A stretch of 64,000 bases of DNA, from positions 24,649,223-24,713,222 of the forward strand of contig NC_092391.1 of the NCBI RefSeq assembly GCF_030028105.1. The letters run 5' to 3'. The translations under genes were made by a program, and so were the position numbers. Shown here in pieces: positions 3,636-59,814 of this stretch; position 1 is the stretch's first letter, and every line of letters begins with the position of its first letter. Below the pieces are notes generated by a model that was given only the letters and a program-made list of their open reading frames with translations, had not been told where the DNA came from and made no database searches. This DNA is from Mobula birostris (lineage: Eukaryota).

Positions 3636-4273
3636 AATTCTACCAAAGGCAAAAGGCAAGGGTATGAAGATAATCTTCTAAGGTTATTACAAAGATATTA
3701 TTTCTAACATATACTATAGGGAGAAAAGAGCCTAAGGGTATGTGAATTGTATGGACTGCAAAAGATCACCAGAACTCATCACATTTCCAGTTTGTAATAT
3801 GTTGTACAAGTTTTATGAAAACTTCCGTTGTACAAAATACTTTGAATTGAATTCAAAGTATGGTGTTGCAGTGTAGTTGGGAAGGGCAGGAGGGAAGATT
3901 CTGTTTCTTTCAGGTAGCAGTTGTCACTTGACCTTGGTGTAGGCATCTCTTGGTATTTGTTTCTCGAGAAAAGTTGAGGTACTGAGATATAACGGATGAA
4001 ACGAACAAAGAAAAAAAATGCATTTCTGTTGTGCCTCTCATGTTTCCAGGATGCCCTGAAGCATTTCACCAATCATGATTTTGGTTTACTGTGGTCACTC
4101 CTGTAACATACAAAATCATGCAACCAGATTCTATCAAGCTTGCTGCCAATAGCAGCCATGTATCCAGATAATCTGTTTATTACAGCAATGTAATATCGAT
4201 TAAGGAATGTACTTTAATATGTTATTTAATGCTTAGTGTGTGTTTGTGAGATCTCGTTATTATTCGAGTTGTA

Positions 4274-5190
4274 AGGACCACAAGACATAGCAGAATTAGT
4301 CCATTTGGCCCATCCAGTCTGCTCCGCTATTTGATCATGACTGCACACATCAAAGTTGCTGGTGAACGCAGCAGGCCAGGCAGCATCTCTAGGAAGAGGT
4401 ACAGTCGACGTTTCGGGCCGAGACCCTTCGTCAGGAAGGTCATGGCGTTGATCATGGCTGATTTATTCTCCCTCTCAACCCCATTCTCCTGCCTTCTCCC
4501 CGTAACTTTTGGCACCCTTACTAATCATGGACCTATCAACCTCTGCTTAAAATTTATCCAATGACTTGACTTCCAGAGTCACCCATGACATTGAGTCCAC
4601 AGATTCACCACCCTCTGACCAAAAAAGTTCCTGCTTGTATTTGTTCTGAATGAAGGTCTTTGTGCCCTCTGGTCCTAGACTCTCCCACTATTGGCAATGT
4701 TCTCTCCATGTCCCATCTAACTAGATCCTTCAATGAATTTGGTAGGTTTCAGTAAGCCTCACCCCACATTCCAGGAGGTACAGGTCCAGAAAATATTTCT
4801 CGTGCATTAGCCCTTTCATTCCCAGGATCATTCTCATAAACCACCTCTAGACCCTGTCCATTACCAGTACATCCTTTCTGAGATGTGGGACCCAAAGCTG
4901 CTCTCAATACTCCAAATGTACTCTGACTAATGCCCTACAGAGCCTCAGCATTACATCCTTGCTTTTATATTCTAGTTCTCCCTAAATAAATACTTGTATT
5001 ACATTTGCCTTCCTTACTACCAACTCAGTCCAGATGTTAACCTTTAGGGAATCCTGCAAAAGGATTCAGCAGTTCCTTTGCTGCTCCAATTTCTCAATTT
5101 CCTCCCCATTTTGGAAATAATCGATGCATTTATCCTTCTCTCAAAGTGCATTGTCATACATATTTCCTACATTGTATTCCAACTTCCATA
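4274..5190 (-). mobile_element. 5'-truncated CR1 LINE, same subfamily as 2292-3635, inverted
   Basis: Reverse complement matches about 2850-3635; interrupted at 4344-4447. Confidence 0.85.
4344..4436 (-). mobile_element. Short Penelope-derived insertion with hammerhead core, inside a CR1 tail
   Basis: Minus strand reads CTGACGA-A-GGGTCTCGGCCC-GAAAC-GTC-GACTG; flanked by near-duplicate ttgatcatgRctg (4331-4343 and 4448-4460). Confidence 0.75.
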
Positions 5191-8150
5191 TTCCATCAGA
5201 AGTAGGAATGAAACTTCTCTGTTTTAGAATATAGAATATTACAGCACTGGGCAGGCTACTTGGCCCATGATCTTGTGCCCATAATGCCAATTTGTGTGAA
5301 ATGCCCTCTTCCTGTGTGTAATCCATATTCCTCCCATCCCTTCATATTTATGTGTCTATCTGAAAATCTCAAGCTCCTCCAAACTGCCTGCTTTCTATTT
5401 TGTTTATGTATATCTGATTGCTTAATGTCTTTCTACGGAAGTCAGAAAATTCAGTTCAACATATTGTCAAGTTAAATTATAAATCTAAGACTCTAGTCAG
5501 TGGTCAAATTAATTTTTTCCCACTAGTCATATCTCATCTAGTGCTTTGCAACTTTTCCCAATAAAGCATGTATTCCGAACTGATATGTTGGTGGCTTGAT
5601 TCAGTTGAACAGTGAGGCATGATAAGAGATAATATTGACTTTATTCAGTCAGGACCAAGTAATGTCAGTACTGAAAGATGAGTGCCCAAACCTAAAGTGA
5701 ATTGCAGAATTTAGGCATGTGCAGTCACTTTTTGTATAACATTCTGGTGTTGGGTTTGTTTGTTGAATGTTGCATAAAAGTTGCTGGCTTGAGCAACTGA
5801 GTTCCGTGAATGAGTTGATAGTTAAAGTGGTTTAAAGCAAATAAATTACTTGGGGATTATTTGGATCTTTCCCACTTTTTAATTTAATAACAAATCCAGT
5901 AATTGACCATAAATAGGCAGGGAAGGCAAAGCAAAGGTCAGCCACAAATTTCAAAAACCCAAGATTCTACCATGCAGTCCTCCTCTGCTCCTTCATAATC
6001 AATCATTTAATCAATTTTCTGGGTCATCTTCAATTCAGTTGTCTTTTTTTGGCTTAGTGTCCATTCCTTCTCTGTACCTCCAGGTTTATTTTTGTGTATT
6101 ATTATGTTTACTGCCTCATCTTAGCCCTGAGACGGGATTTGATAGCTTTCTGATACTTCCAGTGTGGTGATATGTCAAGAGTTCTGGGCTCAGCAACCAT
6201 AAAGGAACAGTCTGGTGTGTATTGAAGACTGCATTGTCTGTGACTTGTTTCCACCCCCCCCCCCCCTCCCGCCATTGGTCCTTCTTTCATTGCATTTTCA
6301 TTGTTTTGTCCCTTTGTCAGAAATTGTGAGATAGCAGCAGTGTCACTTAAAATAATCAGATGTTATTATTGATAGTGATTTTGAAATTGGGGTTGAGACT
6401 TGTGAAACTTTTTTTTCTAAGTTTGAAGGCCTAGTGGATCCAGTTTTTCTTTTGAGTTCAGTGAAGTTTGTTTAGGTTCATTTGAAGTTACTGGGAATTT
6501 TGGTCAAAATGAGTCACTGGTGGATATGCCTTTGGAATTTTGGAATAAAAGTGACCTTGTGGGAGTCTACTCAGGATATGTGCTAATTTTGGGGGAGGTG
6601 TGAGACAGTGATATAAGCATTCAAATGGAATGTGGGAAGATTTGGTTCCATCTGTGCAAATATTTAATTATTATATAAATGACAGTCAGCCACTCAAAAT
6701 GAAAGAAGAGGAAAGCACTCCTTTCAGTTGTTTGCTCTCTTTGGGACCCTCTGAGATTAGCTGACTACTGGTTCTGTAAATGCTCCATCCCAACTGTTCA
6801 GGGTGTGGAATGCCTGATAAAATTCTTATCAGGGTGATTGACAGGCATTTGGAGGCTAGTTTGCATGAGAATACAGTCATTCCAAGATGCTGTGTATGCC
6901 AATTCTGACTCCAAACAACATGCCATTCATGGCAGTAAAGCTTCTTTTTCCCCATATAATTTTTTTTTACCATTTCTGTTCCACTCCTTTGTATCTTAAT
7001 AACACCTCCTACAAGAAGGTCAGGATTATGATAGCCTTTGATTGCAGACACAAGGTGGTAAAGTTATTTAAATTAACAAAAATAACATTGACATTCCTAA
7101 TAATAACTTAACAGTTCATTGACTGTTTAAGCAAATGCATAGAGCTTACAACTCATAAGCAGGTAAAATACCTCAATGGGTCAATATGACTGTCTTTTCC
7201 ATCTTAGCCTTCGACTACTCACCATTTCGCTCAGATCTAATTTATCCTTTTGTTCCTTTGTGTACTCATCTGGCTGCAATTTATAAACTGTCCATGTGGA
7301 ATGCAGCATCATGCAGGTTGTGTTTACAGGCAGCGTTGGGGGTAATGTTGCCACCTTGGCATTTTTATCGTGATATTCCATAACGTGAAACTGGGTCAAC
7401 TATGTGTCAAGAAGCATGAGTTGAAAAAAAAATTTACTCCTTTCCACACACATTCCAAACAAGTGCATTTTATTCTGTTTCTCAATTTTTTTTTCATAGT
7501 GATTTGTGAATTCTTTAAGGGTCACTGTCTGTTACCTAAACAGCCATAACATGGAGGTTATCTGCATTATTTTGGTCACCTGATCTGTTTACCTGTTTAC
7601 TGTTTAGTTTTCCAATTAAATATAAACTACAGTAAGTGTTTTGATTTACAACAAAAAAATTATTTTCCATTGTCTAATTCAAAATAATTTCAGGCCTTGT
7701 TTTTGAGTTGGCTGATTGTACTTTCAGGATTTGTTTCTGATGACCTTGGTACAGGTAGACGTGCAAGTTACAGAGCATTTCAGCTGCATTAAATTGGTAG
7801 GCTCAATAGCGATGCCTTTTCTGAGCAGAATTGCACAAGAGCAATGCTGACTACAGTGCTTTTTCAATTTTATTTGCAAAAAAATTACAGAGTCTGGGTG
7901 ATTATTTAGAATGTCATGATTCTTTATAATTCATTGCCTCTGAAGAACTTTAGAATGTCCTAGGATATGAAAAAATTTTTCATAAGAGCATTAGTTGTTG
8001 TTTTGCGATCACACTGACTCTTACCAAGTATTGGTATTCAGGTTTTTGTCCCCACTCAGTTTCTTTATTTCCCCCTGCAATCTATTTCAGGTCACTGAGT
8101 TCACAGGAAATTTTATCTTATTACTTAGTAATATCTTGAAAGTGAATAGA

Positions 8151-9417
8151 TGGTGTGCTTATGATACAGAATTCCTTCCCAGCAGAGGAGATAAAAGATT
8201 TGAATTATGGATAGAAAAAGGTCTTACAACCTACCTCTCATTCGCACATAAAAGTGCATTACAAAGCTTTCAATCCCTGCAGGATAAATCGGCCTAGAAC
8301 GCAATGTTTTTTTTAGGTACCTTCAAGTATGACACTACTTTAACCAGAGTTGTAGATATAGGGACTTATCAACAGCAGAATTAGAATTTTTCAAGATTCT
8401 GAAATTGGCTTACAGCTCAATACCAAGTAAAGCTATTTCTCGATTACATAATGCCCTCTCTCATGCCAAAAATGAAAACACATTGTATATTAAAGAGAAG
8501 TGGGAGAAAGAAGTGAGGTTGGTACTTTCAGAGGAGACTTGGGGGAAAATATGCAGCTTTCAGTGGTCTTCAACTAACTCTTTGATTTGGAGAGAACATT
8601 GCTGGAAAAATATTATAAGATACTTCAAGACCCCATACCAGGAAAAATTATAAAGACACAAACATGGCGTGTTGGAGAAGATATGGCTCCAAGGAGGCAA
8701 ATCATTTCCATATTTTTTAAGATTGCCCTAAATTAAGTTTATATTGGAAAGGTATTCACAGAACATTAGTTAAGGTATTTAAGACTCCAATACCTCTGAA
8801 CTTGGAGACACTCTATTTGGGGCATGTATTGTTTTTGGAACAGAAGAAAGAGATAAAGCTGCCGCGGGCCCTTTTAGCGGCAAGTAAGAAATCGGTCACC
8901 AGAAAGTGGCTAAATCCAGCATCACCTACATTGGAAGATTGGCATGAAATTATTTTGGAAGTATTTAAAATGGAAAAGATGACTTGCTGTCTGAGAATTC
9001 AAAAAGAAAAAAATGTATCAAATTTGGAATAAATGGATTGAATTTATAACCCCAATGCGAGCAGACTTTAGATGACTCTCATAAAGGTTCATACTGCTTT
9101 CCTCATCAACATAGTAATAGTGTTAACGTTAAGTTCCCTTGGTTCAAATGTTCACTGTTTTATTTCTGGAAAACGTGGAATTAATACAAATAAAGAAAAA
9201 GATTTGGGGAAAAAATGATAAAAATGAAGTAAATAAGTAAACAGGGATTGGATAAGTATGTCTGTGGGTGGGAGCAAACATGAATGTGTACTTGTGAATG
9301 TATAAATATGTATAGTTTTATACATATATAAAAAATGGAAAAGGTTTTATATGCTTAAAAAAAAGTTTGTGTAATACTTGCAAATATCTTATCCAAATAA
9401 AAATAAAGTTAAAAAAA
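8151..9417 (+). mobile_element. 5'-truncated L1-clade LINE (ORF2 C-terminus, 3'UTR, A-tail)
   Basis: ORF pieces WIEKGL, KEKWEKE, REHCWKNIIRYFKTP, decayed CCHC knuckle (CWR...HIF*DCPKL), RKWL..PTLEDW..MEK; AATAAA then A-rich tail; 13-bp TSD gaaaRtgaataga at 8138-8150 and 9418-9430. Confidence 0.85.
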
Positions 9418-20189: not shown

Positions 20190-21580
20190 TTCCTATACTA
20201 TACTGACAACTGCATTAGTGCTGCTTCCTGCACCCATGCGGGGCTTGTCAATTTCATCCACTTTGCCTCCAACTTCCAACTTGCCCTCAAATTTACTTGA
20301 TCTATTTGTGACTCTCCTCTCCCCTTTCTCAATCTGTCTCTCTCTCTCTATCTGTCTTCATCACTGGAGACAGTCTGTCTCCAGATATTTCTTTTTAGCC
20401 CACTGACTCGCTCAGCTATCTGGACTGTATCTTTTCCCACCCTGTCACTTGTAAAAATGCCATTCCCTTTTCACAGTTCCTCCATCTCTGCCACATCTGC
20501 TCTCAGGATGAGGCTTTTCTTTCCAGAACAACTGCGATGTTGTCCTCCTTCAAAGAAATGGGCTTCCTTTCCTCCACCATCAATGAATCACCTGAATCTC
20601 ACTTATTTTGTGCACTTCTGTCCTCACCCCACATCCTCCCCCCCCCACCCACTGCACCAGCAATAGGGTTCATAATTTCCGTAACTCTTGCCATCTTCAA
20701 CAGGATCCCACCACCAAACACATCTTTCCCTCCCCCCACCTTCCACTGAAAGTACTCCCTACACAACTCCCCTGTCCACTCGTCCCACCCCACTGATCTC
20801 TCTCCTGGCACATATCCTTGCCAGCAGAGCAAGTACCACACCTGCCCTTACACCGCTGCCTCTATCATTCAGGGCTTCAAACAGTCCTTCCAAGTGAGGT
20901 GACACTTCACCTGTGAGTCTGTTGGCGTCGCCAACTGTATTGGGTGTTCCTGGTGTCACCTCTTGTATATTGGTGAGACCCAATGTAGATTGAGGGACCA
21001 CTTCGTTGAGCACCTTTTCTCCATCCGCCACAAAAAGTGGGATTTCCCACCAGCCACCCATTTCAATTCTTCTTCCTATTCCCATTCCAATATGTCAATC
21101 TACTGTCTACTATCAGGATGAGGCCACACTCAGGTTGGAGGAGCAACATCTTGTATTCCGTCTGGGTAGCCTCCAAACTGATGGTATGAATGTTAATTTT
21201 TTTTTAACTTACGGTAATTCCTCCTCCCCCTCCCTACCATTCCCCTTTTGCATTTCCCTCTCATGCCTTCTCTTCTTGCCTGCCCATCACCTCCCTCTGG
21301 TGCTGCTTACACTTCCTTCCTTCCATGGTTTTCTGTCCTCTCAATCAGATTCCCTCTTCTCCGGCCTTTTACCTCTTTCACCGATCAAGTTCCCAGCTCT
21401 TTACCACCCCCTCCCCCAGATTCACCTATCACCTGCCACCTTGTACTTCTCCCTCCCTGCCCCCAGCTTCTTATTCTGACTTCTCCCATTCCTTTCCAGT
21501 GTTGATGAAAGGTCTCAGCCCAAAACATCGACTATTTACTCTTTTCCAAAGATGCTGCCTGGTCTGCTGAGTTCCTCCGG
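20190..21580 (+). mobile_element. Penelope-like element: RT C-terminus, GIY-YIG endonuclease and terminal repeat, disrupted
   Basis: 20921-21010 reads VGVANCIGCSWCHLLYIGETQCRLRDHFVEH; RLEEQHLVFRLGSLQTDGMN; pyrimidine-rich tail, then decayed hammerhead-bearing terminus at 21497-21575. Confidence 0.85.
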
Positions 21581-26099: not shown

Positions 26100-26594
26100 T
26101 AATACTGCTTTTCAGAAAATTCACCTTGTTGACTTTAATGTCTATTCACAAAATAATTAAAATCAAGAGGGAAAAGCAAGCAGGGTTATCAATAAAAATG
26201 GAGATGAAGTTACAGCAACATTAACTTTACATTGGTACTGGAATGTGGGTTGTTTCTCTGGAAGGTGCAATAGGATTTGAAAGGGAGTTAAGTTAGTGGA
26301 GCACTTGGAAACATTTAAAGTAATCAGAAAAGGTTGACCTGTTTTCTGAAAAGAAAGTCGTGTTTGACTAATTGGAGCTTGAAGAATTACCATGTGTTGT
26401 GAATAAAAGGGAAACAATATATTGCTATCCACCATTTGGCATTTGATAAGCTATCTCCACAATTTATTGTGGAAAATAAAAGCTCCTGGTATAGAAGATA
26501 AGATGTTGGCAAGGATAGATTAACTTGGTTGTCAAAATGTAAAGACAAGTGTGCTACTGGACAAGAGAAAACCAGATGCTGGAAATCCGAACAA

Positions 26595-26660
26595 CACACG
26601 CAAATTGCTGGAGGAACTCAGCAGGCCAGGCTGCTGAGTTCCTCCAGCATTTTGTGTGTG
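26595..26660. repeat. Fold-back (30-bp arms, 6-nt loop) made of the Penelope-derived repeat, within decayed CR1 (about 26190-26760)
   Basis: cacacgcaaattgctggaggaactcagcag-gccagg-ctgctgagttcctccagcattttgtgtgtg; 28 of 30 positions complementary. Confidence 0.9.
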
Positions 26661-27499
26661 CCACTGGACTAGTGTTTGGGGCTTAAGTTTTACAATTTTT
26701 GTATGAAACCTGGATGAAGGAGCCAAATGCATTGTCCCTGAAGGTAGATGTTGAGTTACTATCCGATCGACTGTGATCTTATTAAATAGCTAAACAGGCA
26801 CAGGAATGCTAAATAGCCTAAGCCAGATGCTATTTCAAGTTTATACTTAATTACCAGATGCAGTTAGAGGCATCTGGTGGAGAGACTGTGGAGAAATTAA
26901 ATTTGCTAAATTCTTCTTTGTAGAATATTTGAAGGCTTGGAAGCTTGATCTCAGGTTAATGGTACAAAGAGAAAAAGGAGAAATATTTACAACGTCTATG
27001 TTTTCAATTAAAATGATCTGTTGAAAGTACTCAGCAGGGCAGGGGAGAGAAGTAATAAAGGTTTCAAACTGGTGACCCCTCATCAGAACATGGTATTTTT
27101 AAGGTTTCAATAGAATTGGGTAACATTGAACAATCATATATTATATCTTCTTGTCTTACGTTTTTAAATACTCAAGTCAAAAATATAACAAACACACAAT
27201 AGGATTTTTCTTTTTTTGGTAAAGGAAGTTTTTGTTCCAAAAATGGTTGTGGACTTTTATTCTAAGTCACGGCCAAGAACCCATTGGGAGATGTGGAAGG
27301 ATAAGCAATCTGGAATAGTTCAGCCAAAATCATCACAATGCTGCAATTTCTTTCACACTCTGAAATGTTGAATGCCATTTTGTTAAGAAGTTGGGAACGT
27401 CAATTCTATTCCACAAAATAATTGAATGCTTCAGTGTAGGTTTTTGGACTGAATTCAGCTGAGAAAGCTTGAATACCTGAATATTTTGGAGACTATTAG

Positions 27500-36071: not shown

Positions 36072-36278
36072 CACAAACGAGAAAATCTGCAGATGCTGGA
36101 AATCCAAGTAACACACACAAAATGCTGGAGGAACTCAGCAGGCCAGGTAGCATCCATGGAAAAGAGTTCATGTTTTGGACAGAGACCAAGTTCCTGATGA
36201 AGGGTATCAGCCCAGAACATCAACTATACTCTTTTCGTAGATGCTGCCTAGCCTGCTGAGTTCCTCCAGTATTTTGTG
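36072..36278. repeat. Inverted pair of Penelope-terminus repeats (fold-back element) in ABL1 intron 9
   Basis: cacaaaatgctggaggaactcagcaggccaggtagcatccatggaaaagag ... ctcttttcgtagatgctgcctagcctgctgagttcctccagtattttgtg; decayed CTGATGA core at 36194. Confidence 0.85.
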
Positions 36279-36919: not shown

Positions 36920-37765
36920 GTATGTTCACATTAGATCAGGTGGTGACATGGAGGTTTGAAAGTGTAATCGCTAGTGCTTTACAGACAACCCCGCCCCAAC
37001 ATCACAACAGTTTGGATGAGAGAAATTCACCCTTACAAGTTGTGACTGTAAATCTGAGATATGGAATATAAACTCATTCATATAAAAATTTACATTGGAG
37101 AAAAGTAAATACAAACTTCTGTCTTCAACTGTCACGTCTTGATGCGTGAACAAGGTTCATGTTATGGAAAATAATGACATTATTTTCCAGGAATACAACC
37201 AGTCACCCCCATTAACATCAGAGTCATCTATGCTGATCATATAATGTGCACCAACATGAATTTCTAGCTAAATTGAGTGGATTTGAACTCATTTCATACA
37301 GGACACTGCATCTCAATAATGATTGGTATTCAGCCTTTCACACACTCTCATCAGACTCGCCTTGCACTTCCGCAGTTCAGTGGCACATCAACCTGAACAT
37401 AAATGTGCATTTCTTCCCCACCACCCCCAGTGCAAACATGTCCAAAACACAGGCTGGATCCACCAACTTTCTGCACTCCCCACTGACATCCTTCTCATTG
37501 CCTGCATTTCTTCCATCAACAGCACAGACCTGTCACACTGTAACAAACCTGTAGGCATGTCCAACAGCTTGACCACCCTCCATTACTCATGGCTGCTTCC
37601 CCAGTCACGTGCCCATGAACAAGCTGAAAGGCCATCTTCATACCACTGAAGGCACTCTGATCCATGTTATCACTTGTTTGGGCTGTAGGAGTAGCACTTG
37701 CCCAGAGATTCAGGGAATTGTAATGTGTAAGACATACAGGTGCTTACATTTGCTTCTACCTACAG

Positions 37766-39516
37766 ATTCTGGGGACCATGAAATGGCCATTTCTCCGATG
37801 CTGCCGCGGAAAGACAAAGACACAGACAGCGCCTTGGATGATGATCGTTTACAGTCTTCTACTAAAGAGAAAGGCAAATCCAGTTCAATCTTCAGCTCGT
37901 TCATCAAGAAAAAGAAAAAGACGGCACCCACCCCACCGAAGCGCAGCAGTTCTTTCCGTGACATGGATGGGCAGGCGGAAAAGAAAGAAACAGTGGAAGA
38001 TGTCATCACAGTGACGAAAGATGCTAACAATGGATCTTGTGTGAATAATGTAACACCTCTTGACACAATGGACCCATCAAAATTTCAGCATTCTTCTAAC
38101 ACTGGGGCACAAAGTACTAACAATGGAGGTGGAGGGGTTGCCAATGGCAGCTTCTTGGGAACAACAGGGTTCTTTCTGCATTCTAGGAAGTCCAGTACAT
38201 TAGCTGCGGGAAAGCCAGTTGGGAATGAAGAAGAGTTGCTCACAAATTCAAAGCGATTCTTGAGATCTTGCTCTGCATCAACAATGCCTCCTGGAAGCAA
38301 GGACCAAGACAGGAAAGCACTGACCCTTCCTCGTGACCTCCAGTCTGCAGGGAAGCAATCTGATCCGGCCGGCATCTTGGGTTGTGACAAGAATGAGAAG
38401 CCAGCCTTGCCTCGAAAGAGGACAAATGAAACTAAAGTGGACACTGTTCCTCGTGGAAACTTAACCACATCATCTCGGCTGCCAAAAAAGACTGATGAGT
38501 TAAATGATGATGTTTTTAACAACCAGGAGTCCAGTCCAAGCTCAAGCCCACCATCATCCACTCCAAAGATTGTTCGAAGGCAGCCGACAGTAATCACATC
38601 AATCAATCTCGTCTCCAGGGACAAGGACAAGGATGAGGGGGGGAAGACTTGTGCCTTAAGTTCTGCTTCCCAACAAGACCATAACTCCTCTAGTGCCTCT
38701 GCTTGCACATCAAAGCAGAGCTCCACCTCGGTCCTGGGTGGGGTAAAGCTGCTGAACGACGACCCCAAGGTACGAAGGTTCAGGCAGCCTCCTGAGCAGC
38801 ATCGGTCGTCCTCCATAAAGGACCGGGCCAAGATGCAAAAATCGAAACCAGCCCCTCCTCCTCCTCCCGGCGTGAAATCTGTACGACCACCTCGAAGCCC
38901 GACCCAAGAGACTGCGGCTGAGACTGCCATGAGCATCAAGCCCAAGCAGTCCACTCAGGTCCCAGACACTATGAACAGTGAGATCTTGAAGCCAGGTCAT
39001 CTGGGGGAGAAGAGGCCTTCTTTCCATTCAACAACGAAGTCCCAGTCCTCCACCAAGGCCTCAAGCACCAATTCAACTGCACCCTCTGCCTCTGCACAGT
39101 CTGCCTTATCAGCTGCTGGTGGTGACCAGCAGCCCTCAGCGACCACAGCCTTCATCCCACTCATCTCTACCAGAGTATCCTTACGCAAGACACGACAGCA
39201 GCCAGAGAAGATCACCAGTGCCAACATCACTAAGGACACCGTTTTAGAGAGCACAGAAGCATTACGTGTGGCCATTGGGAAGAACTCCGAGCAGATGGCT
39301 AGCCACAGTGTGGTGCTGGAGGCAGGCAAGAACCTTATCACCTTCTGTGTCAGCTACGTGGACTCCATCCAGCAAATGCGTAATAAGTTTGCCTTTAGGG
39401 AGGCCATCAACAAGCTGGAGAGCAACTTACGGCAGTTACAGATCTGCTCGGCCAGCCAGGACTTTACCAAACTTCTCTCATCTGTGAAAGAAATCAGTGA
39501 CATCGTCCAGAGGTAG
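37766..39516 (+). CDS. ABL1: ABL1 last coding exon 11 (NLSs, PxxP motifs, F-actin-binding domain, stop)
   Basis: ctacag|AT acceptor in frame with ORF 37609-39516; IKKKKKTAPTPPKRSSSFR, SKRFLRSCSAS, TLPRDLQS, KPALPRKR, PPPPP, NKFAFREAINKLESNLRQLQI (NES), ends LLSSVKEISDIVQR-TAG like ABL1. Confidence 0.96.
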
Positions 39517-52250: not shown

Positions 52251-52815
52251 CCGCTGGCATACGTTGATGTTAATGTATTAGAGCTTTTGCAAACATTTAG
52301 ATATGCACCCTGAGCCAGAGGGGATATAGCCCAGGTTGTTACAGGAAGCAAAGAACAAAATTGCTGCGCCTTTGGCGATTAATTTAGAAATTATAAATTA
52401 CATGAAACTTACCTATGCCTCTCACCCGACACTTATGTTGAAATTTGTTCAGGGTCATTGATCCAATTTAAATCAGACTACATTTATTTCACTTGCCCAC
52501 AATAGAGTTTTGGATTGCCAATCTGGCAAAAAAAAAGTTGTATGCTATCGTTTTAGGCCACATTCCACAGCTCTGGACTCAAAATGCTTGTTTCTCTCCT
52601 CACCAGTAGTTTCGTTTGACACGGTGGTTAAATCACTCCCCCAAAATACCAAGAAATGCAACCCTTATTATAATCTCATTGGACTTTAAAGTTTTGGAGA
52701 GTAGCATCATTCTGATAAATCCAAGTCGTGCTCTCTCCATAATCGCAATTTGCTAGGATGCAATGTGCCCAAAGTTTCACGATACTCCAGCTTTGGCTTC
52801 TTCCCCGTTTCTTGC

Positions 52816-52853
52816 CAGTCCTGATGAAGGGTCTCAGCCCGAAACGTCAACTG
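52816..52853 (+). ncRNA. Minimal type I hammerhead ribozyme motif in a Penelope-derived terminal repeat (repeat spans about 52790-52915)
   Basis: CAGUC-CUGAUGA-A-GGGU(CUCA)GCCC-GAAAC-GUC^AACUG: intact core boxes, helix II, palindromic ACGU helix III, helix I with 4 of 5 pairs. Confidence 0.65.
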
Positions 52854-53759
52854 TTTATTCCGCTCCATAGATGCCGCCCGACCACCCGAGTTCCTCCAGC
52901 ATTTTATGCATGTTATTCATGGTACTCCAGATATAGTCTAATAGGAGTGCTGTAGAATATATTTTATTCCCTTAAACTTGAAGTCCTTTATATTAGTCCT
53001 TCCAATTATTTGCCATGTTTGTTCAAGATGTTTTAATGATCTGTTCTCTTAGATTCTAACCTGCACAGCCGCCAAACCCTCCATAGGTCTCTGCTGCTGC
53101 TACATTTCTCACTTAGAAATTTCTGGATCCTAAGTCGGTGAGTTCACGTTGCCTAAACTGAATTTTATTTTCTCCAATTCTATTCATTCACCCAGCCATT
53201 TCATGATTTGAGCCTTACTGGCAAGGTCATTACTAACTACCCTGAACATCATGCTTGCTCATTTCAAAAGTTCCATTTCCGTGCTTTTGGAGTCACAAAT
53301 TAACCAATAAGAATTGCTAAATTCCTCTGCAGCACTTTAGTGAATCAGATTTTTTAATGATTTTTATTACTTCCCATCATAGGATTTCAACTTAGCTCTG
53401 TCCAAGCTGCTGGGTTAGTTGTGTGATAAACCAAAACTACTGCACTGCCACTATACCCATTTAATACTTACATCAATATATTTTGTTGACAATTATTGTG
53501 TCATCAGCAAACTCATATCTATGCCTTTCTATTCCCTAATACAGATCTGTAATTTAAAAATGAAGAATAGTGGATTCCCCCACACACAAAAATCATCTCT
53601 CCTAATTTCAGTGCCTGTCTATTCTACCACGTAGACTATTTAACAATTTGCCTTCAAGTCAATAAGTTTCTGTTTTGACCATCTCTATGTGGATTTTATT
53701 CAATAGTCTGAACACTTACCACATTCAGGGCTGTTCCACTGCCCACTACTGCAAGTCAC

Positions 53760-54098: not shown

Positions 54099-54459
54099 GG
54101 CTGTTCAAAAAGAGTCAGTGAGCTTAATCAGGTAATGATCTACCTTTTCTAAACCCACGTTCTCTCTCTGATCAACTAAACATTTCAAAGTTGTTGAGTC
54201 AACACTTCCTTGATTATAAACTTCAGTAATTTCCCAAACACAGTTGTTAGGCTAATTGGTCTATAATTTCCTGCTTTCCCAATTTTTAACCACAAATACA
54301 TAAGCTACAAGATTTTCCTGCAGTGAAGAACTCACCTCCTGCCACTAAGGAGCCTTTCCACAATCTGCAAAGCATGTTAGAAATATGATGCAATTTTGTC
54401 CACTAGCCTGGAAGAGTACATCCCTAATGCTGTTCAAAACCCAAAACTATCCCAGACCA

Positions 54460-54548
54460 AACAACACATACAAAATGCTGGAGGAACTCAGCAGGCTAGG
54501 CAGCATCTATGGAAAAAAGTACAGTCGAGACCCTTCGGCAGGAATGGA
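54460..54548 (-). repeat. Penelope-terminus-derived repeat with internally deleted hammerhead
   Basis: caaaatgctggaggaactcagcaggctaggcagcatctatggaaaaaagtacagtcga[deletion]gacccttcggcagga. Confidence 0.8.
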
Positions 54549-55959: not shown

Positions 55960-56950
55960 ATGCCAGGCAGGATGTTGGAATGCTCCTCTTGCAGGATGTG
56001 GGAAGTCAGGGAGCCCTCCGGTGTCCCTGACAATGACACCTGCAAGAAGTGCATCCAGCTGCAGCCCCTAACAAACCGTGTTAGGGAACTGGAACAGGAG
56101 CTGGATGACCTGCGGATCATTCGGGAGAATGAGGCGATTATAGATAGTAGCTACAGGGAGGTAGTTACGCCAAAGGAGCAGAGGACAGGAAATTGGGTCA
56201 CTGTCAGGCGAGGGAAGAGGAAAGGGCAGGTAGAGCAAGGTTCCCCTGTGGCCATTCCCCTCAACAACAAGTATACCGCATTGGATACCGTTGGGGGGGG
56301 ATGACTTACCTGGGACAAGCTGCAGTAGCCGGATCTCTGGCACTGAGTCTGGCTCTGCAGTGTAGAAGGGAGGGTGGAAAAAGAGGAGAGCGGTAGTGAT
56401 AGGGGACTCGATGGTTAGAGGTGCAGATAGGAGGTTCTGTGGTCGTGACTGAGAACCCAGGATGGTTTGTTGCCTCCAGGGTGCCAGGGTCAAGGATGTC
56501 TCTGATCACTTGCATGACATTCTGAAGTGGGAGGGTGATCAGCTAGATGTCGTGGTGCACATCGGTACCAATGACGTAGCAAGGAAGAGTGAGGAGGTCC
56601 TGGATAGTGAGTATAGAGAGCTTGGTAGGAAGTTGAAAAGCAGGACCTCAAGGGTGGTAATCTCAGGATTGCTACCTGTGCTAGGTGCTAGTGAGGGTAA
56701 GAATAGGATGCTCTGGAGGAGGAACAAGTGGCTGAGGAACTGGTGTAGGGGGCAGGGTTTCAGATTTCAGGATCATTGGGACCTCTTCTGGGGTAGGTGG
56801 GACCTGTACAAGAGAGACGGGTTACACTTGAACTACAGGGGAACCAATATCCTTTCAGGGAGGTTTGTTAGTGCTATTGGGAAGGCTTTAAACGAGATTT
56901 GCAGGGGGATGGGAACCAGAGTGCCAGAGCTGGCAGAGTGGCTGGGGTGA
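55960..56950 (+). pseudogene. CR1 ORF1: zinc finger/coiled coil plus SGNH esterase, disrupted
   Basis: CSSC...CKKC, LTNRVRELEQELDDL; VIGDSMVRG, GARVKDV, HIGTND, DGLHLN; frameshift at G-run near 56293-56300 and in-frame stops near 56363 and 56449. Confidence 0.9.
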
Positions 56951-59814
56951 AAATAAATGATGTTAAAAGTTCAAGCAAATCCGCTAATAGAAAGGTTGTG
57001 AGTGGTGGTAAAAATCTTCTGAGGTGTATATATTTCAATGCTAGGAGTATTGCAGGGAAGGCGGATGAGTTGAGGGTGTGGATTGATATGTGGAATTATG
57101 ACGTTATAGCAATTAGTGAAACTTGGCTACAGGAGGGGCAGGACTGGCAGCTTAATATTCCAGGGTTCCGATGTTTCAGATGTGATCGAGCTGAGGAATG
57201 AAAGGTGGGGGAGTAGCATTGCTTGTTAGGGAAAATATTACAGCAGTGCTCAGGCAGGACAGATTAGAGGGCTTGTCTACTGAGTCTTTATGGGTGGAGC
57301 TGAGAAACAGGAAAGGTATGGCCACATTAGTGGGATTGTATTACAGACCACCCAATAGTCAACGAGAATTGGAAGAGCAAATCTGCAGAGAGATAGCAGG
57401 CAACTGCAGGAAACATAAAGTTGTGGTGGTAGGGGATTTTAATTTTCCATATATTGATTGGGACTCCCATACTGTTAGGGGTCTAGATGGTTTAGAGTTT
57501 GTAAAATGTGTTCAGGAAAGTTTTCTAAATCAATATATAGAGGGACCAACTAGAGGGGATGCAATATTGGATCTCCTGTTAGGAAACAAGTTAGGACAAG
57601 TGACGGAAGTCTGTGTAGGGGAGAACTTTGGTTCCAGTGATCATAACACCATTAGTTTCAACTTGATCATGGACAAGGATAGATCTGGTCCTAGGGTTGA
57701 GGTTCTGAACTGGAAGAAGGCCAAATTTGAAGAAATGAAAAAGGATCTAAAAAGTGTGGATTGGGACAGGTTGTTCTCTGACAAAGATGTGATCGGTAGG
57801 TGGGAAGCCTTCAAAGGAGAAATTTTGAGAGTGCAGAGTTTGTATGTTCCTGTCAGGATTAAAGGCAAAGTGAATAGGAATAAGGAACCTTGGTTCTCAA
57901 GGGATATTGCAACTCTGATAAAGAAGAAGAGGGAGTTGTATGACATGTATAGGAAACAGGGAGTAAATAAAGTGCTTGAGGAGTATAAGAAGTGCAAGAA
58001 AATACTTAAGAAAGAAATCAGGAGGGCTAAAAGAAGACATGAGGTTGCCTTGGCAGTCAAAGTGAAGGATAATCCAAAGAGCTTTTACAGATATATTAAG
58101 AGCAAAAGGATTGCAAGGGATAAAATTAGTCCTCTTGAAGATCAGAGTGATCGGCTATGTGTGGAACCAAAGGAAATGGGGGAGATCTTAAATAGGTTTT
58201 TTGCGTCTGTATTTACAAAGGAAACTGGCATGAAGTCTATGGAATTAAGGGAAACAACTAGTGAGACCATGGAAACTGTACAGATCGAAGAGGAGGAGGT
58301 GCTTGCTGTCTTGAGGAAAATAAAAGTGGATAAATCCCTGGGAGCTGAAAGGGTGTTCCCTCGGACCTTGAAGGAAACTAGTGTTGAAATTGCAGGGGCC
58401 CTGGCAGAAATATTTAAAATGTCGCTGTCTACAGGTGAGGTGCTGAAGGATTGGAGAGTGGCTCATGTTGTTCCGTTGTTTAAAAAAGGATCGAAAAGTA
58501 ATCCAGGAAATTATAGGTCGGTAAGTTTAATGTCGGTAGTAGGTAAGTTATTGAAGGGAGTACTAAGAGACAGAATCTACAAGCATTTGGATAGACAGGG
58601 ACTTATTAGGGAGAGTCAACATGGCTTTGTGCGTGGTAGGTCATGTTTGACCAATCTATTGGTGTTTTTCGAGGAGGTTACCAGGAAAGTGGATGAAGGG
58701 AAGGCAGTGGATATTGTCTACATGGACTTCAGTAAGGCCTTTGACAAGGTCCCGCGTGGGAGGTTAGTTAGGAAAATTCAGTCGCAAGGTATACATGGAG
58801 AGGTGGTAAATTGGATTAGACATTGGCTCAATGGAAGAAGCCAAAGAGTGGTGGTAGAGAATTGCTTCTCTGAGTAGAGGCCTGTGACTAGTGGTGTGCC
58901 ACAGGGATCAGTGCTGGGTCCATTGTTATTTGTCATCTATATCAATGATCTGGATGATAATGTGGTAAATTGGATCAGCAAATTTGCTGATGATACAAAG
59001 ATTGGAGGTGTAGTAGACAGTGAGGAAGGTTTTCAGAGCCTGCAGAGGGACTTGGACCAGCTGGAAAAATGGCAGATGGAGTTTAATACAGACAAATGTG
59101 AGGTATTGCACGTTGGAAGGACAAACCAAGGTAGAACATACAGGGTTAATGGTAAGGCACTGAGGAGTGTAGTAGAACAGAGGGATCTGAGAATACAGAT
59201 ACAAAATTCCCTAAAAGTGGCATCACAGGTAGATAGGGTCGTAAAGAGAGTTTTTGGTACATTGGCCTTTATTAATCAAAGTATTGAGTATAAGAGCTGG
59301 AATGTTATGATGAGGTTGTATAAGGCATTGGTGAGGCTGAATCTGGAGTACTGTGTTCAGTTTTGGTCACCAAATTACAGGAAGGATATAAATAAGGTTC
59401 AAAGAGTGCAGAGGTTTACAAGGATGTTGCCGGGACTTGAGAAACTCAGTTACAGAGAAAGGTTGAATAGGTTAGGACTTTATTCCCTGGAGCGTAGAAG
59501 AATGAGGGGAGATTTGATAGAGGTATATAAAATTATGATGGGTATAGATAGAGTGAATGCAAGCAGGCTTTTTCCACTGAGGCAAAGGGAGAAAAAAAAC
59601 CAGAGGACATGGGTTAAGGGTGGGGTGAGGGGAGGAAGCTTAAAGGGAACATTGAGGGGGCTTCTTCACACAGAGAGTGGTGGGAGTATGGAATGAGCTG
59701 CCAGACGAGGTGGTAAATGCGGGTTCTTTTTTAACATTTAAGAATAAATTGGACAGATACATGGCTGGGGGGTGTATGGAGGGATATGGTCCGTGTGCAG
59801 GTCAGTGGGACTAG
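56899..59814 (+). pseudogene. CR1 ORF2: APE endonuclease plus reverse transcriptase, disrupted
   Basis: YFNARSI, ISETWL, YYRPP, GDFNFP, SDH; QHGF, DFSKAFDKV, GVPQGSVLGP, FADD; frameshift near 57198, TAG at 58875 (expected TGG), frameshift near 59600. Confidence 0.95.

What the first reader, a model, noticed from the sequence alone, without database searches (positions are those of the whole stretch)
52816..52853. Near-intact minimal hammerhead ribozyme in a Penelope-derived repeat
Seen: CAGUC-CUGAUGA-A-GGGUCUCAGCCC-GAAAC-GUC^AACUG, with both catalytic boxes, a GUC triplet, a 4-bp helix II, and helix I CAGUC/AACUG (GACUG in the copy at 4402, which would pair fully). Helix III is only the palindrome ACGU. 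Established: Penelope-like elements carry minimal type I hammerheads with palindromic helix III that cleave as dimers, and an extra A after A9 occurs in natural hammerheads (CChMVd plus strand). Inference: this abundant repeat is a self-cleaving RNA module, with predicted cut after 52848.
Basis: partly seen in the sequence, partly recalled or inferred. Interest (0 to 1): 0.7.

Follow-up and report, generated by a model that had tools for sequence, protein, structure and literature searches.

The report
Decayed Penelope hammerhead in ray genome
This is a mutated, likely inactive copy of the tiny hammerhead RNA motif that Penelope-type jumping genes are already known to carry, one of an estimated 0.9 million such end pieces in what is likely a ray genome, so it is ordinary apart from hints about where the element's RNA starts and whether it is ever cut.

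Summary
The motif is real, at the stated coordinates, and far above chance. It lies in a 127-bp solo insertion (52791-52917, 13-bp target duplication) that is the cut-short 3' end of a Neptune/Nematis-type Penelope-like element (PLE). One near-full-length copy has the motif in both terminal repeats around an RT plus GIY-YIG frame. The architecture matches the published PLE minimal hammerheads.

The family has about 0.9 million copies; 46,924 match an intact pattern exactly. Subfamily consensuses keep the core, vary N7, and an old branch swaps the 2.1-1.1 pair from C-G to U-A. One branch carries A6C.

This copy is about 12% diverged, has lost the pair next to the cut, folds as an inactive rod and has no intact partner in the window. 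The 4402 copy lacks its 5' arm, so it does not pair fully.

Young copies start at the motif's 5' edge (34 of 100), not at the cut, which suggests uncut RNA is the template. Rare duplications end at the cut (26 of 90), but also 7 bases further on (21 of 90). Cleavage is untested. The scan has already reported this family many times, in this genome and others.

The parts
52791..52917 (+). 127-bp 5'-truncated solo insertion of a Penelope-like element: end of the pyrimidine-rich 3' region, hammerhead motif, and sequence up to the first of two typical 3' ends (69 nt after the cut)
   Evidence: 15 of 127 bases differ from the majority of its 29 closest genomic relatives
52778..52790 (+). 5' target-site duplication (13 bp, 11 identical to the 3' copy)
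52918..52930 (+). 3' target-site duplication
52816..52853 (+). Minimal type I hammerhead motif; core intact, pair 2.1-1.1 broken by G>A at 52849, loop G>A at 52836 (both at CpG sites); predicted cut after 52848
52815..52821 (+). Initiator-like heptamer overlapping the helix I 5' arm; A52817 is the position where young family copies most often begin (inferred RNA start; the initiator consensus YYANWYY is recalled)
4340..4436 (-). Second copy, young subfamily: intact core and GACUG arm, but truncated inside the helix I 5' arm
20222..21580 (+). Longer 5'-truncated, frameshifted copy of the same element: RT C-terminus, linker, GIY-YIG remains, 3' region and a broken hammerhead at about 21497-21534 (start coordinate approximate)
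   Evidence: homologous loci L046 and L057 hit Pfam GIY-YIG below the curated cut-off
36077..36278 (.). Head-to-head pair of decayed copies joined inside the motif, the usual inverted PLE arrangement
54459..54548 (-). Nearest copy that retains part of the core: A6C-type core with an internal deletion, opposite strand; cannot partner the focal copy

Best explanation
The motif is the minimal hammerhead carried in the terminal repeat of a very abundant Penelope-like retroelement, and this copy is an old, truncated solo insertion that is likely catalytically dead. Shown: the 127-bp insert with target duplication; the link to an RT plus GIY-YIG frame; the motif in both repeats of a near-full-length copy 3.7 kb apart; two 3' ends about 35-40 nt apart. 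Inferred: in the parent element the RNA starts at the first base of helix I, so the hammerhead is the first 37 nt of the transcript, about 170 nt ahead of the likely start codon. The monomer folds as an inactive rod. Slow cleavage would need a second motif pairing through ACGU, or the element's own protein as chaperone, and would decap the RNA or release a unit-length RNA. Most inserted copies come from uncut RNA, reverse-transcribed from the internal tail sites.
For: Element link: L095 has the motif at 7384 and 3658 around the frame; RVT_1 and GIY-YIG Pfam hits, all below curated cut-offs (E 1e-5 to 5e-3); DKG, CX4CxxC linker and CxxC inside GIY-YIG are visible in the L092 frame, the Neptune/Nematis signature. 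Same architecture as the published cichlid, lamprey and Xenopus motifs. Subfamily consensuses differ by 0.10 per site in the motif against 0.36-0.42 upstream and 0.29 in the next 18 nt (the motif figure is inflated by an alignment shift and CpG ties). N7 varies T/C/A (67/35/18 of 123). An old branch has U2.1-A1.1 (16 of 19; 5 of 9 independently found copies). Decay of this copy: C.A at 2.1-1.1, rod fold 65% of the ensemble, open helix I+II fold P=0.0008. Of 21 family hits in the window only this one and the truncated 4402 copy keep the core with ACGU. Uncut template: 34 of 100 young copies start at -33..-20 against 4 at 0..+18. Frangieh 2024 found in the anole element that cleavage needs the protein and is not needed for insertion.
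Against: No cleavage or transcription data: no run was on record as RNA and only contigs were available. An intact young copy has the same low probability of the open fold (0.0006), so the folding result does not separate this copy from intact ones; the case for decay rests on the broken pair, age and isolation. The block 19-65 nt downstream is as conserved as the motif (0.12). The pair count on 10 hand-picked rows, one of them a misaligned other-family motif, did not exceed shuffles (106 of 500 reached the paired fraction). An A6C subfamily amplified widely (23 of 62 in one cluster), so strict selection on catalysis is not shown. The majority of the 29 nearest relatives also has A at 52849 (they were picked by likeness to this copy).
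Confidence: 0.85

Rival explanations
1. The motif descends from a hammerhead, but in this lineage it is kept as promoter or protein-binding sequence and no longer cleaves.
For: The helix I 5' arm overlaps the inferred start site. The downstream block is equally conserved. The A6C branch spread (1,512 exact non-A6 matches, about half of the first 100 being C). Natural A6C lowers activity to under 0.1 per min in a phage hammerhead (PMC3088659 passage). The young subfamily has G10.1.U11.1 in place of G-C. Naiad PLEs proliferate without hammerheads.
Against: All non-CpG core positions stay fixed while N7 varies, the pattern expected for a hammerhead. The old branch keeps helix I pairing through a double change. 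A6C is also described as a Mn2+-preferring active variant (PMC7151607 abstract). 26 of 90 short duplications end exactly at C17.
Confidence: 0.25
2. This copy is an active or co-opted ribozyme that cuts read-through RNA downstream of the neighbouring ABL-like gene.
For: It is the only plus-strand copy in the window with a complete core. It lies in the same orientation as, and 13.3 kb after the stop of, an ABL-like last exon.
Against: About 12% divergence and two CpG hits, one at the core-adjacent pair. With 39 of 112 sampled copies keeping the core, an intact core needs no selection. No partner motif is nearby. Single min-HHRs showed no cleavage in vitro.
Confidence: 0.04
3. The repeat is a separate non-autonomous retrozyme or SINE family that replicates through circular RNA.
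For: Very many short solo copies sharing a 5' edge; animal retrozymes derive from PLE repeats and were found in one chondrichthyan.
Against: 5' ends run continuously into the coding region (49 of 100 extend beyond -80). 3' ends match the PLE tail. Unit ends are not at the cut. Short tandem arrays are rare (90 matches genome-wide to the close-repeat pattern).
Confidence: 0.06

Closest known systems
Minimal hammerheads (min-HHR) in pLTRs of metazoan Penelope-like elements (Cervera and De la Pena 2014, PMC4209133; read parts 1-2 of 4 and passages of supplement 2; supplement 1 could not be searched)
   Same: Type I, no helix III beyond palindromic 15.2-16.2, unpaired base between 9 and 10.1, 4-5 bp helix I, in both pLTRs, mostly solo truncated copies; reported in fish Xena, Poseidon and Neptune elements.
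   Different: Helix II is 4 bp rather than 7-8; the young subfamily has G.U at 10.1-11.1; about 47,000 intact copies against 4,000-9,000 in coelacanth and Xenopus; no shark, skate or Callorhinchus entry was found in the searched supplement.
Poseidon element of Anolis carolinensis (Frangieh et al. 2024, PMC11167929; read parts 1-2 of 4)
   Same: pLTR hammerhead, two internal RT start sites giving a 30-40 bp tail, uncut RNA as the main template, inverted and tandem insertions.
   Different: Different clade (no linker zinc finger); there the motif overlaps the start codon, here it lies well upstream of it; that ribozyme was assayed (protein-assisted), this one was not.
Neptune/Nematis EN+ PLEs (Craig et al. 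2021, PMC8557442; passages)
   Same: RT then CX2-5CxxC linker then GIY-YIG with internal CxxC, DKG motif, partial tandems, inverted 5' pieces, tail.
   Different: No tree against named references was built, so Neptune versus Nematis is not resolved.
Animal non-LTR retrozymes (Li et al., bioRxiv 10.64898/2026.07.22.740005; read parts 1-3 of 5; supplements closed)
   Same: Type I hammerheads derived from PLE repeats; 8 of 9 tested dimers showed no cleavage.
   Different: Retrozymes are tandem non-coding arrays; this is a solo truncated end of a coding element.

Membership tests
PLE min-HHR | Core CUGANGA ... GAAA ... UH | tested here: met
PLE min-HHR | Palindromic 15.1-16.1 with no helix III loop | tested here: met
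   ACGU at 52844-47
PLE min-HHR | Unpaired base between A9 and 10.1 | tested here: met
   A in 126 of 128 sampled copies
PLE min-HHR | Helix II with G10.1-C11.1 | tested here: met
   Met in this copy; the young subfamily has G.U
PLE min-HHR | Helix I of 4-5 bp closed next to the cut | tested here: not met
   This copy has C.A at 2.1-1.1; the family consensus meets it
PLE min-HHR | Located in pLTRs of a PLE | tested here: met
PLE min-HHR | Covariation in helices across families | tested here: inconclusive
   One double change between branches; pair count not above shuffles
PLE min-HHR | Self-cleavage as dimer or with protein | not testable with these tools
   No assay; no raw RNA reads
EN+ PLE, Neptune/Nematis type | Single frame with RT then C-terminal GIY-YIG | tested here: met
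   (hits below curated cut-offs); homologs carry PF00078 and PF01541
EN+ PLE, Neptune/Nematis type | CX2-5CxxC linker and CxxC inside GIY-YIG | tested here: met
   L092 translation
EN+ PLE, Neptune/Nematis type | Partial tandem, inverted 5' pieces, 30-40 bp tail | tested here: met
EN+ PLE, Neptune/Nematis type | Clade placement by RT phylogeny | not tested
   No named reference sequences were on hand
Non-LTR retrozyme | Tandem non-coding units each with a hammerhead | tested here: not met
   Solo insert with target duplication
Rfam hammerhead families | Covariance-model match | tested here: not met
   No hammerhead family among the 8 hits at E<=5

The most novel reading that the evidence does not exclude
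The genome holds a fossil record of this ribozyme's RNA life cycle. The capped PLE transcript begins at the first base of helix I (copies pile up there with an extra G), and short duplications ending exactly at C17 are captured 5' cleavage products. That would be genomic evidence that a vertebrate PLE hammerhead cuts in the germ line and acts as a decapping switch.
Probability: 0.3. Interest if true: 0.55.

Novelty: new member of a known kind. Interest (0 to 1): 0.2.

Why it matters
The motif class and its host element have been known since 2014, and this copy is likely a fossil. The value lies in the family. With tens of thousands of near-identical young copies, junction statistics can address the open question of what PLE hammerheads do in vivo. 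Near-intact elements (frames up to 961 aa) supply substrates for the dimer and protein-assisted assays. Earlier notes of this scan already make these points.

Tried and rejected
Rfam scan: no hammerhead hit. Pfam on the four window fragments: no relevant hit. Sequence look-up in the scan's notes: nothing. No RNA holder listed, only contigs, so expression and cut ends could not be read. Laying contigs on the focal locus gave no contig bridging the insert and its unique flank, so orthology was not tested. The metagenome pattern scan gave 1 unrelated-looking contig, L327. The formal pair count was not above shuffles. I considered splicing at the CAG inside helix I (a polypyrimidine tract precedes it, and the D. 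virilis intron ends in helix I). I rejected it as the cause of the 5' pile-up because upstream flanks are target duplications or inverted copies rather than a shared exon; the splice site itself was not tested. Lunse et al. 2017 was not held; I saw only its title and a review's summary. The CChMVd extra-A paper was seen as a reference title only. The literature searches I ran (and a find in the Squalomix preprint) showed no description of this ray family, but subscription journals, Repbase/Dfam and bioRxiv supplements were not searchable.

Full report
Observation. The sequence at 52816-52853 is as written: CUGAUGA, an extra A, a 4-bp helix II, GAAA, the ACGU palindrome, GUC with C17 at 52848, and helix I CAGUC/AACUG. 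The mismatch is the pair next to the cut. The 4402 copy (minus strand) has GACUG but is truncated in its 5' arm, so it does not pair fully. Rfam has no hammerhead hit. A family-blind descriptor found 16 motifs in 800 kb of the genome (80 stretches of 10 kb at round coordinates on 16 contigs) against 0-1 in 10 shuffles; 15 of the 16 belong to this family.

What the repeat is. The window lies in a 4.0-Gb assembly. The motif sits in a 127-bp insert (52791-52917) between 13-bp duplications that match at 11 positions. A longer copy at about 20222-21580 joins the same motif to GIY-YIG remains. A protein search found relatives with open frames up to 961 aa. Of 20 such regions fetched, all carry the motif downstream of the frame, many also an inverted copy upstream, and L095 has two same-strand copies 3.7 kb apart around the frame. 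The frames hit RVT_1 (4 of 5 tested) and GIY-YIG (2 of 5), below curated cut-offs, and show the CX2-5CxxC linker of Neptune/Nematis PLEs. The closest named proteins are from Mobula (92-94%), Hypanus (77-81%) and sharks (67-70%), so the host is likely a myliobatiform ray.

Abundance and decay. An iterated profile found 180 copies in 800 kb and none in reversed sequence, which extrapolates to about 0.9 million. Of 112 copies spanning the motif, 39 keep the core, 30 also the 15.2-16.2 pair, and 10 all pairs. Exact genome counts: 46,924 for an intact pattern (control 0) and 78,434 for the core boxes with GUC (control 2,570). This copy differs at 15 of 127 bases from the majority of its 29 nearest relatives, plus two CpG changes against the family majority.

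Selection on the motif. Subfamilies clustered on columns outside the motif range from 0.71 to 0.96 identity to their own majority. They share the motif except at N7, 11.1 (C to U), the outer helix I pair and, in one branch, A6C. Mean difference between subfamily majorities is 0.10 in the motif, 0.36-0.42 upstream, 0.29 just downstream and 0.12 in the next block. In contigs from four runs of four organisms, differences at 10% or more inside the motif were at N7, 11.1, CpG-type sites and position 1.4, while the flanks had many near-fixed changes (biased by the 80% likeness filter). An old branch has U2.1-A1.1, GUU and a longer helix II (16 of 19; 5 of 9 independently found copies): one compensatory event. 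A pair count on 10 rows did not beat shuffles. The A6C branch shows that a weakened core did not stop amplification.

Folding. The monomer prefers a rod in which the 5' core pairs with CGUC (65% of the ensemble). The G>A change adds a U4-A1.1 pair to that rod and removes 2.1-1.1. The open fold is rare in both this copy and an intact one (0.0008 and 0.0006), and the ACGU duplex is worth only -1.7 kcal/mol. Of 21 family hits in the window, no other plus-strand copy keeps the core.

Clues to mechanism. I took the first 100 listed matches (of 51,719) to a 37-mer downstream of the cut. Of 100 distinct copies mapped, 34 start at -33..-20, 5 at -19..-1, 4 at 0..+18, 8 at -80..-34 and 49 further upstream, some of these last being alignment stops rather than true ends. 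One starts at the cut, at an inversion joint. 3' ends fall at +63-70 and +94-107, matching the PLE tail. Copies starting at AGTCC are preceded by G in 62 of 100 against 28 of 100 at a control position (hand counts; 51:25 against 28:40 after removing inversion-microhomology classes, p=0.002). In the 5 of 30 loci with a clear duplication and extra bases, 4 end in G. This fits a capped RNA starting at helix I (inference; the cap-G effect and initiator consensus are recalled). Following a lead from earlier notes, I listed all 90 short direct duplications of the motif. By hand, 26 end at C17 (22 of 81 after merging arrays), 21 at +6, 9 at +2 and 7 are ambiguous. A script on the first 30 loci (29 joints) gave 4 at C17 and 9 at +4..+6. 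The C17 peak fits capture of cleavage products, but C17 is also the centre of a GTCGAC palindrome and the +6 peak has no catalytic explanation, so cleavage is suggested, not shown.

Comparison. Cervera and De la Pena describe this architecture in PLE repeats, including fish Neptune elements, with no monomer activity and low dimer activity. Frangieh et al. found protein-assisted cleavage that is dispensable for insertion, and no RNA-seq reads ending at the cut. The scan's own notes list 51 findings in at least 17 genomes with these words and 183 fitting notes in this genome; they are unchecked and not independent support.

Verdict. A real motif and a new member of a known kind; this copy is likely inert. 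Interest 0.2.

Noticed in passing
window 37573-39516 +: Last coding exon of an ABL-family kinase gene (F_actin_bind, E 8e-29; ABL identity recalled from the sequence). The copies upstream of it probably lie in its introns.
   Followed up: partly
window 56453-59696 +: Nearly intact CR1-type LINE: esterase-like ORF1 and endonuclease-RT ORF2 with a stop at 58875-58877.
   Followed up: partly
L186:6755-6812 + (G000 C13): A different minimal hammerhead (longer helix II, ACGUC, UGC/GCA-type helix I) not of this family, likely a second PLE lineage.
   Followed up: no
window 54459-54548 -; L166, L078, L126 and others: A whole subfamily with the A6C core change (CUGCYGA), a variant reported as Mn2+-preferring in a phage hammerhead.
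   Followed up: partly
window 52791-52818 and all subfamilies: A branch-point-like motif, polypyrimidine tract and CAG precede helix I, resembling a 3' splice site; Mobula and Hypanus gene models include element-derived isoforms.
   Followed up: partly
L337-L339 (G000 C4:178772324-178772522): Short tandem array of 40-nt hammerhead units, a retrozyme-like arrangement that could form dimers in cis.
   Followed up: no
window 26573-26664: Fold-back insertion of two element tails with the hammerhead deleted; gives spurious miRNA-like Rfam hits.
   Followed up: no
C1:4190010, 4215550, 4560835; L176: A further subfamily with loop II variant UCCG (GGGTTCCGGCCC) and a different downstream spacer.
   Followed up: no
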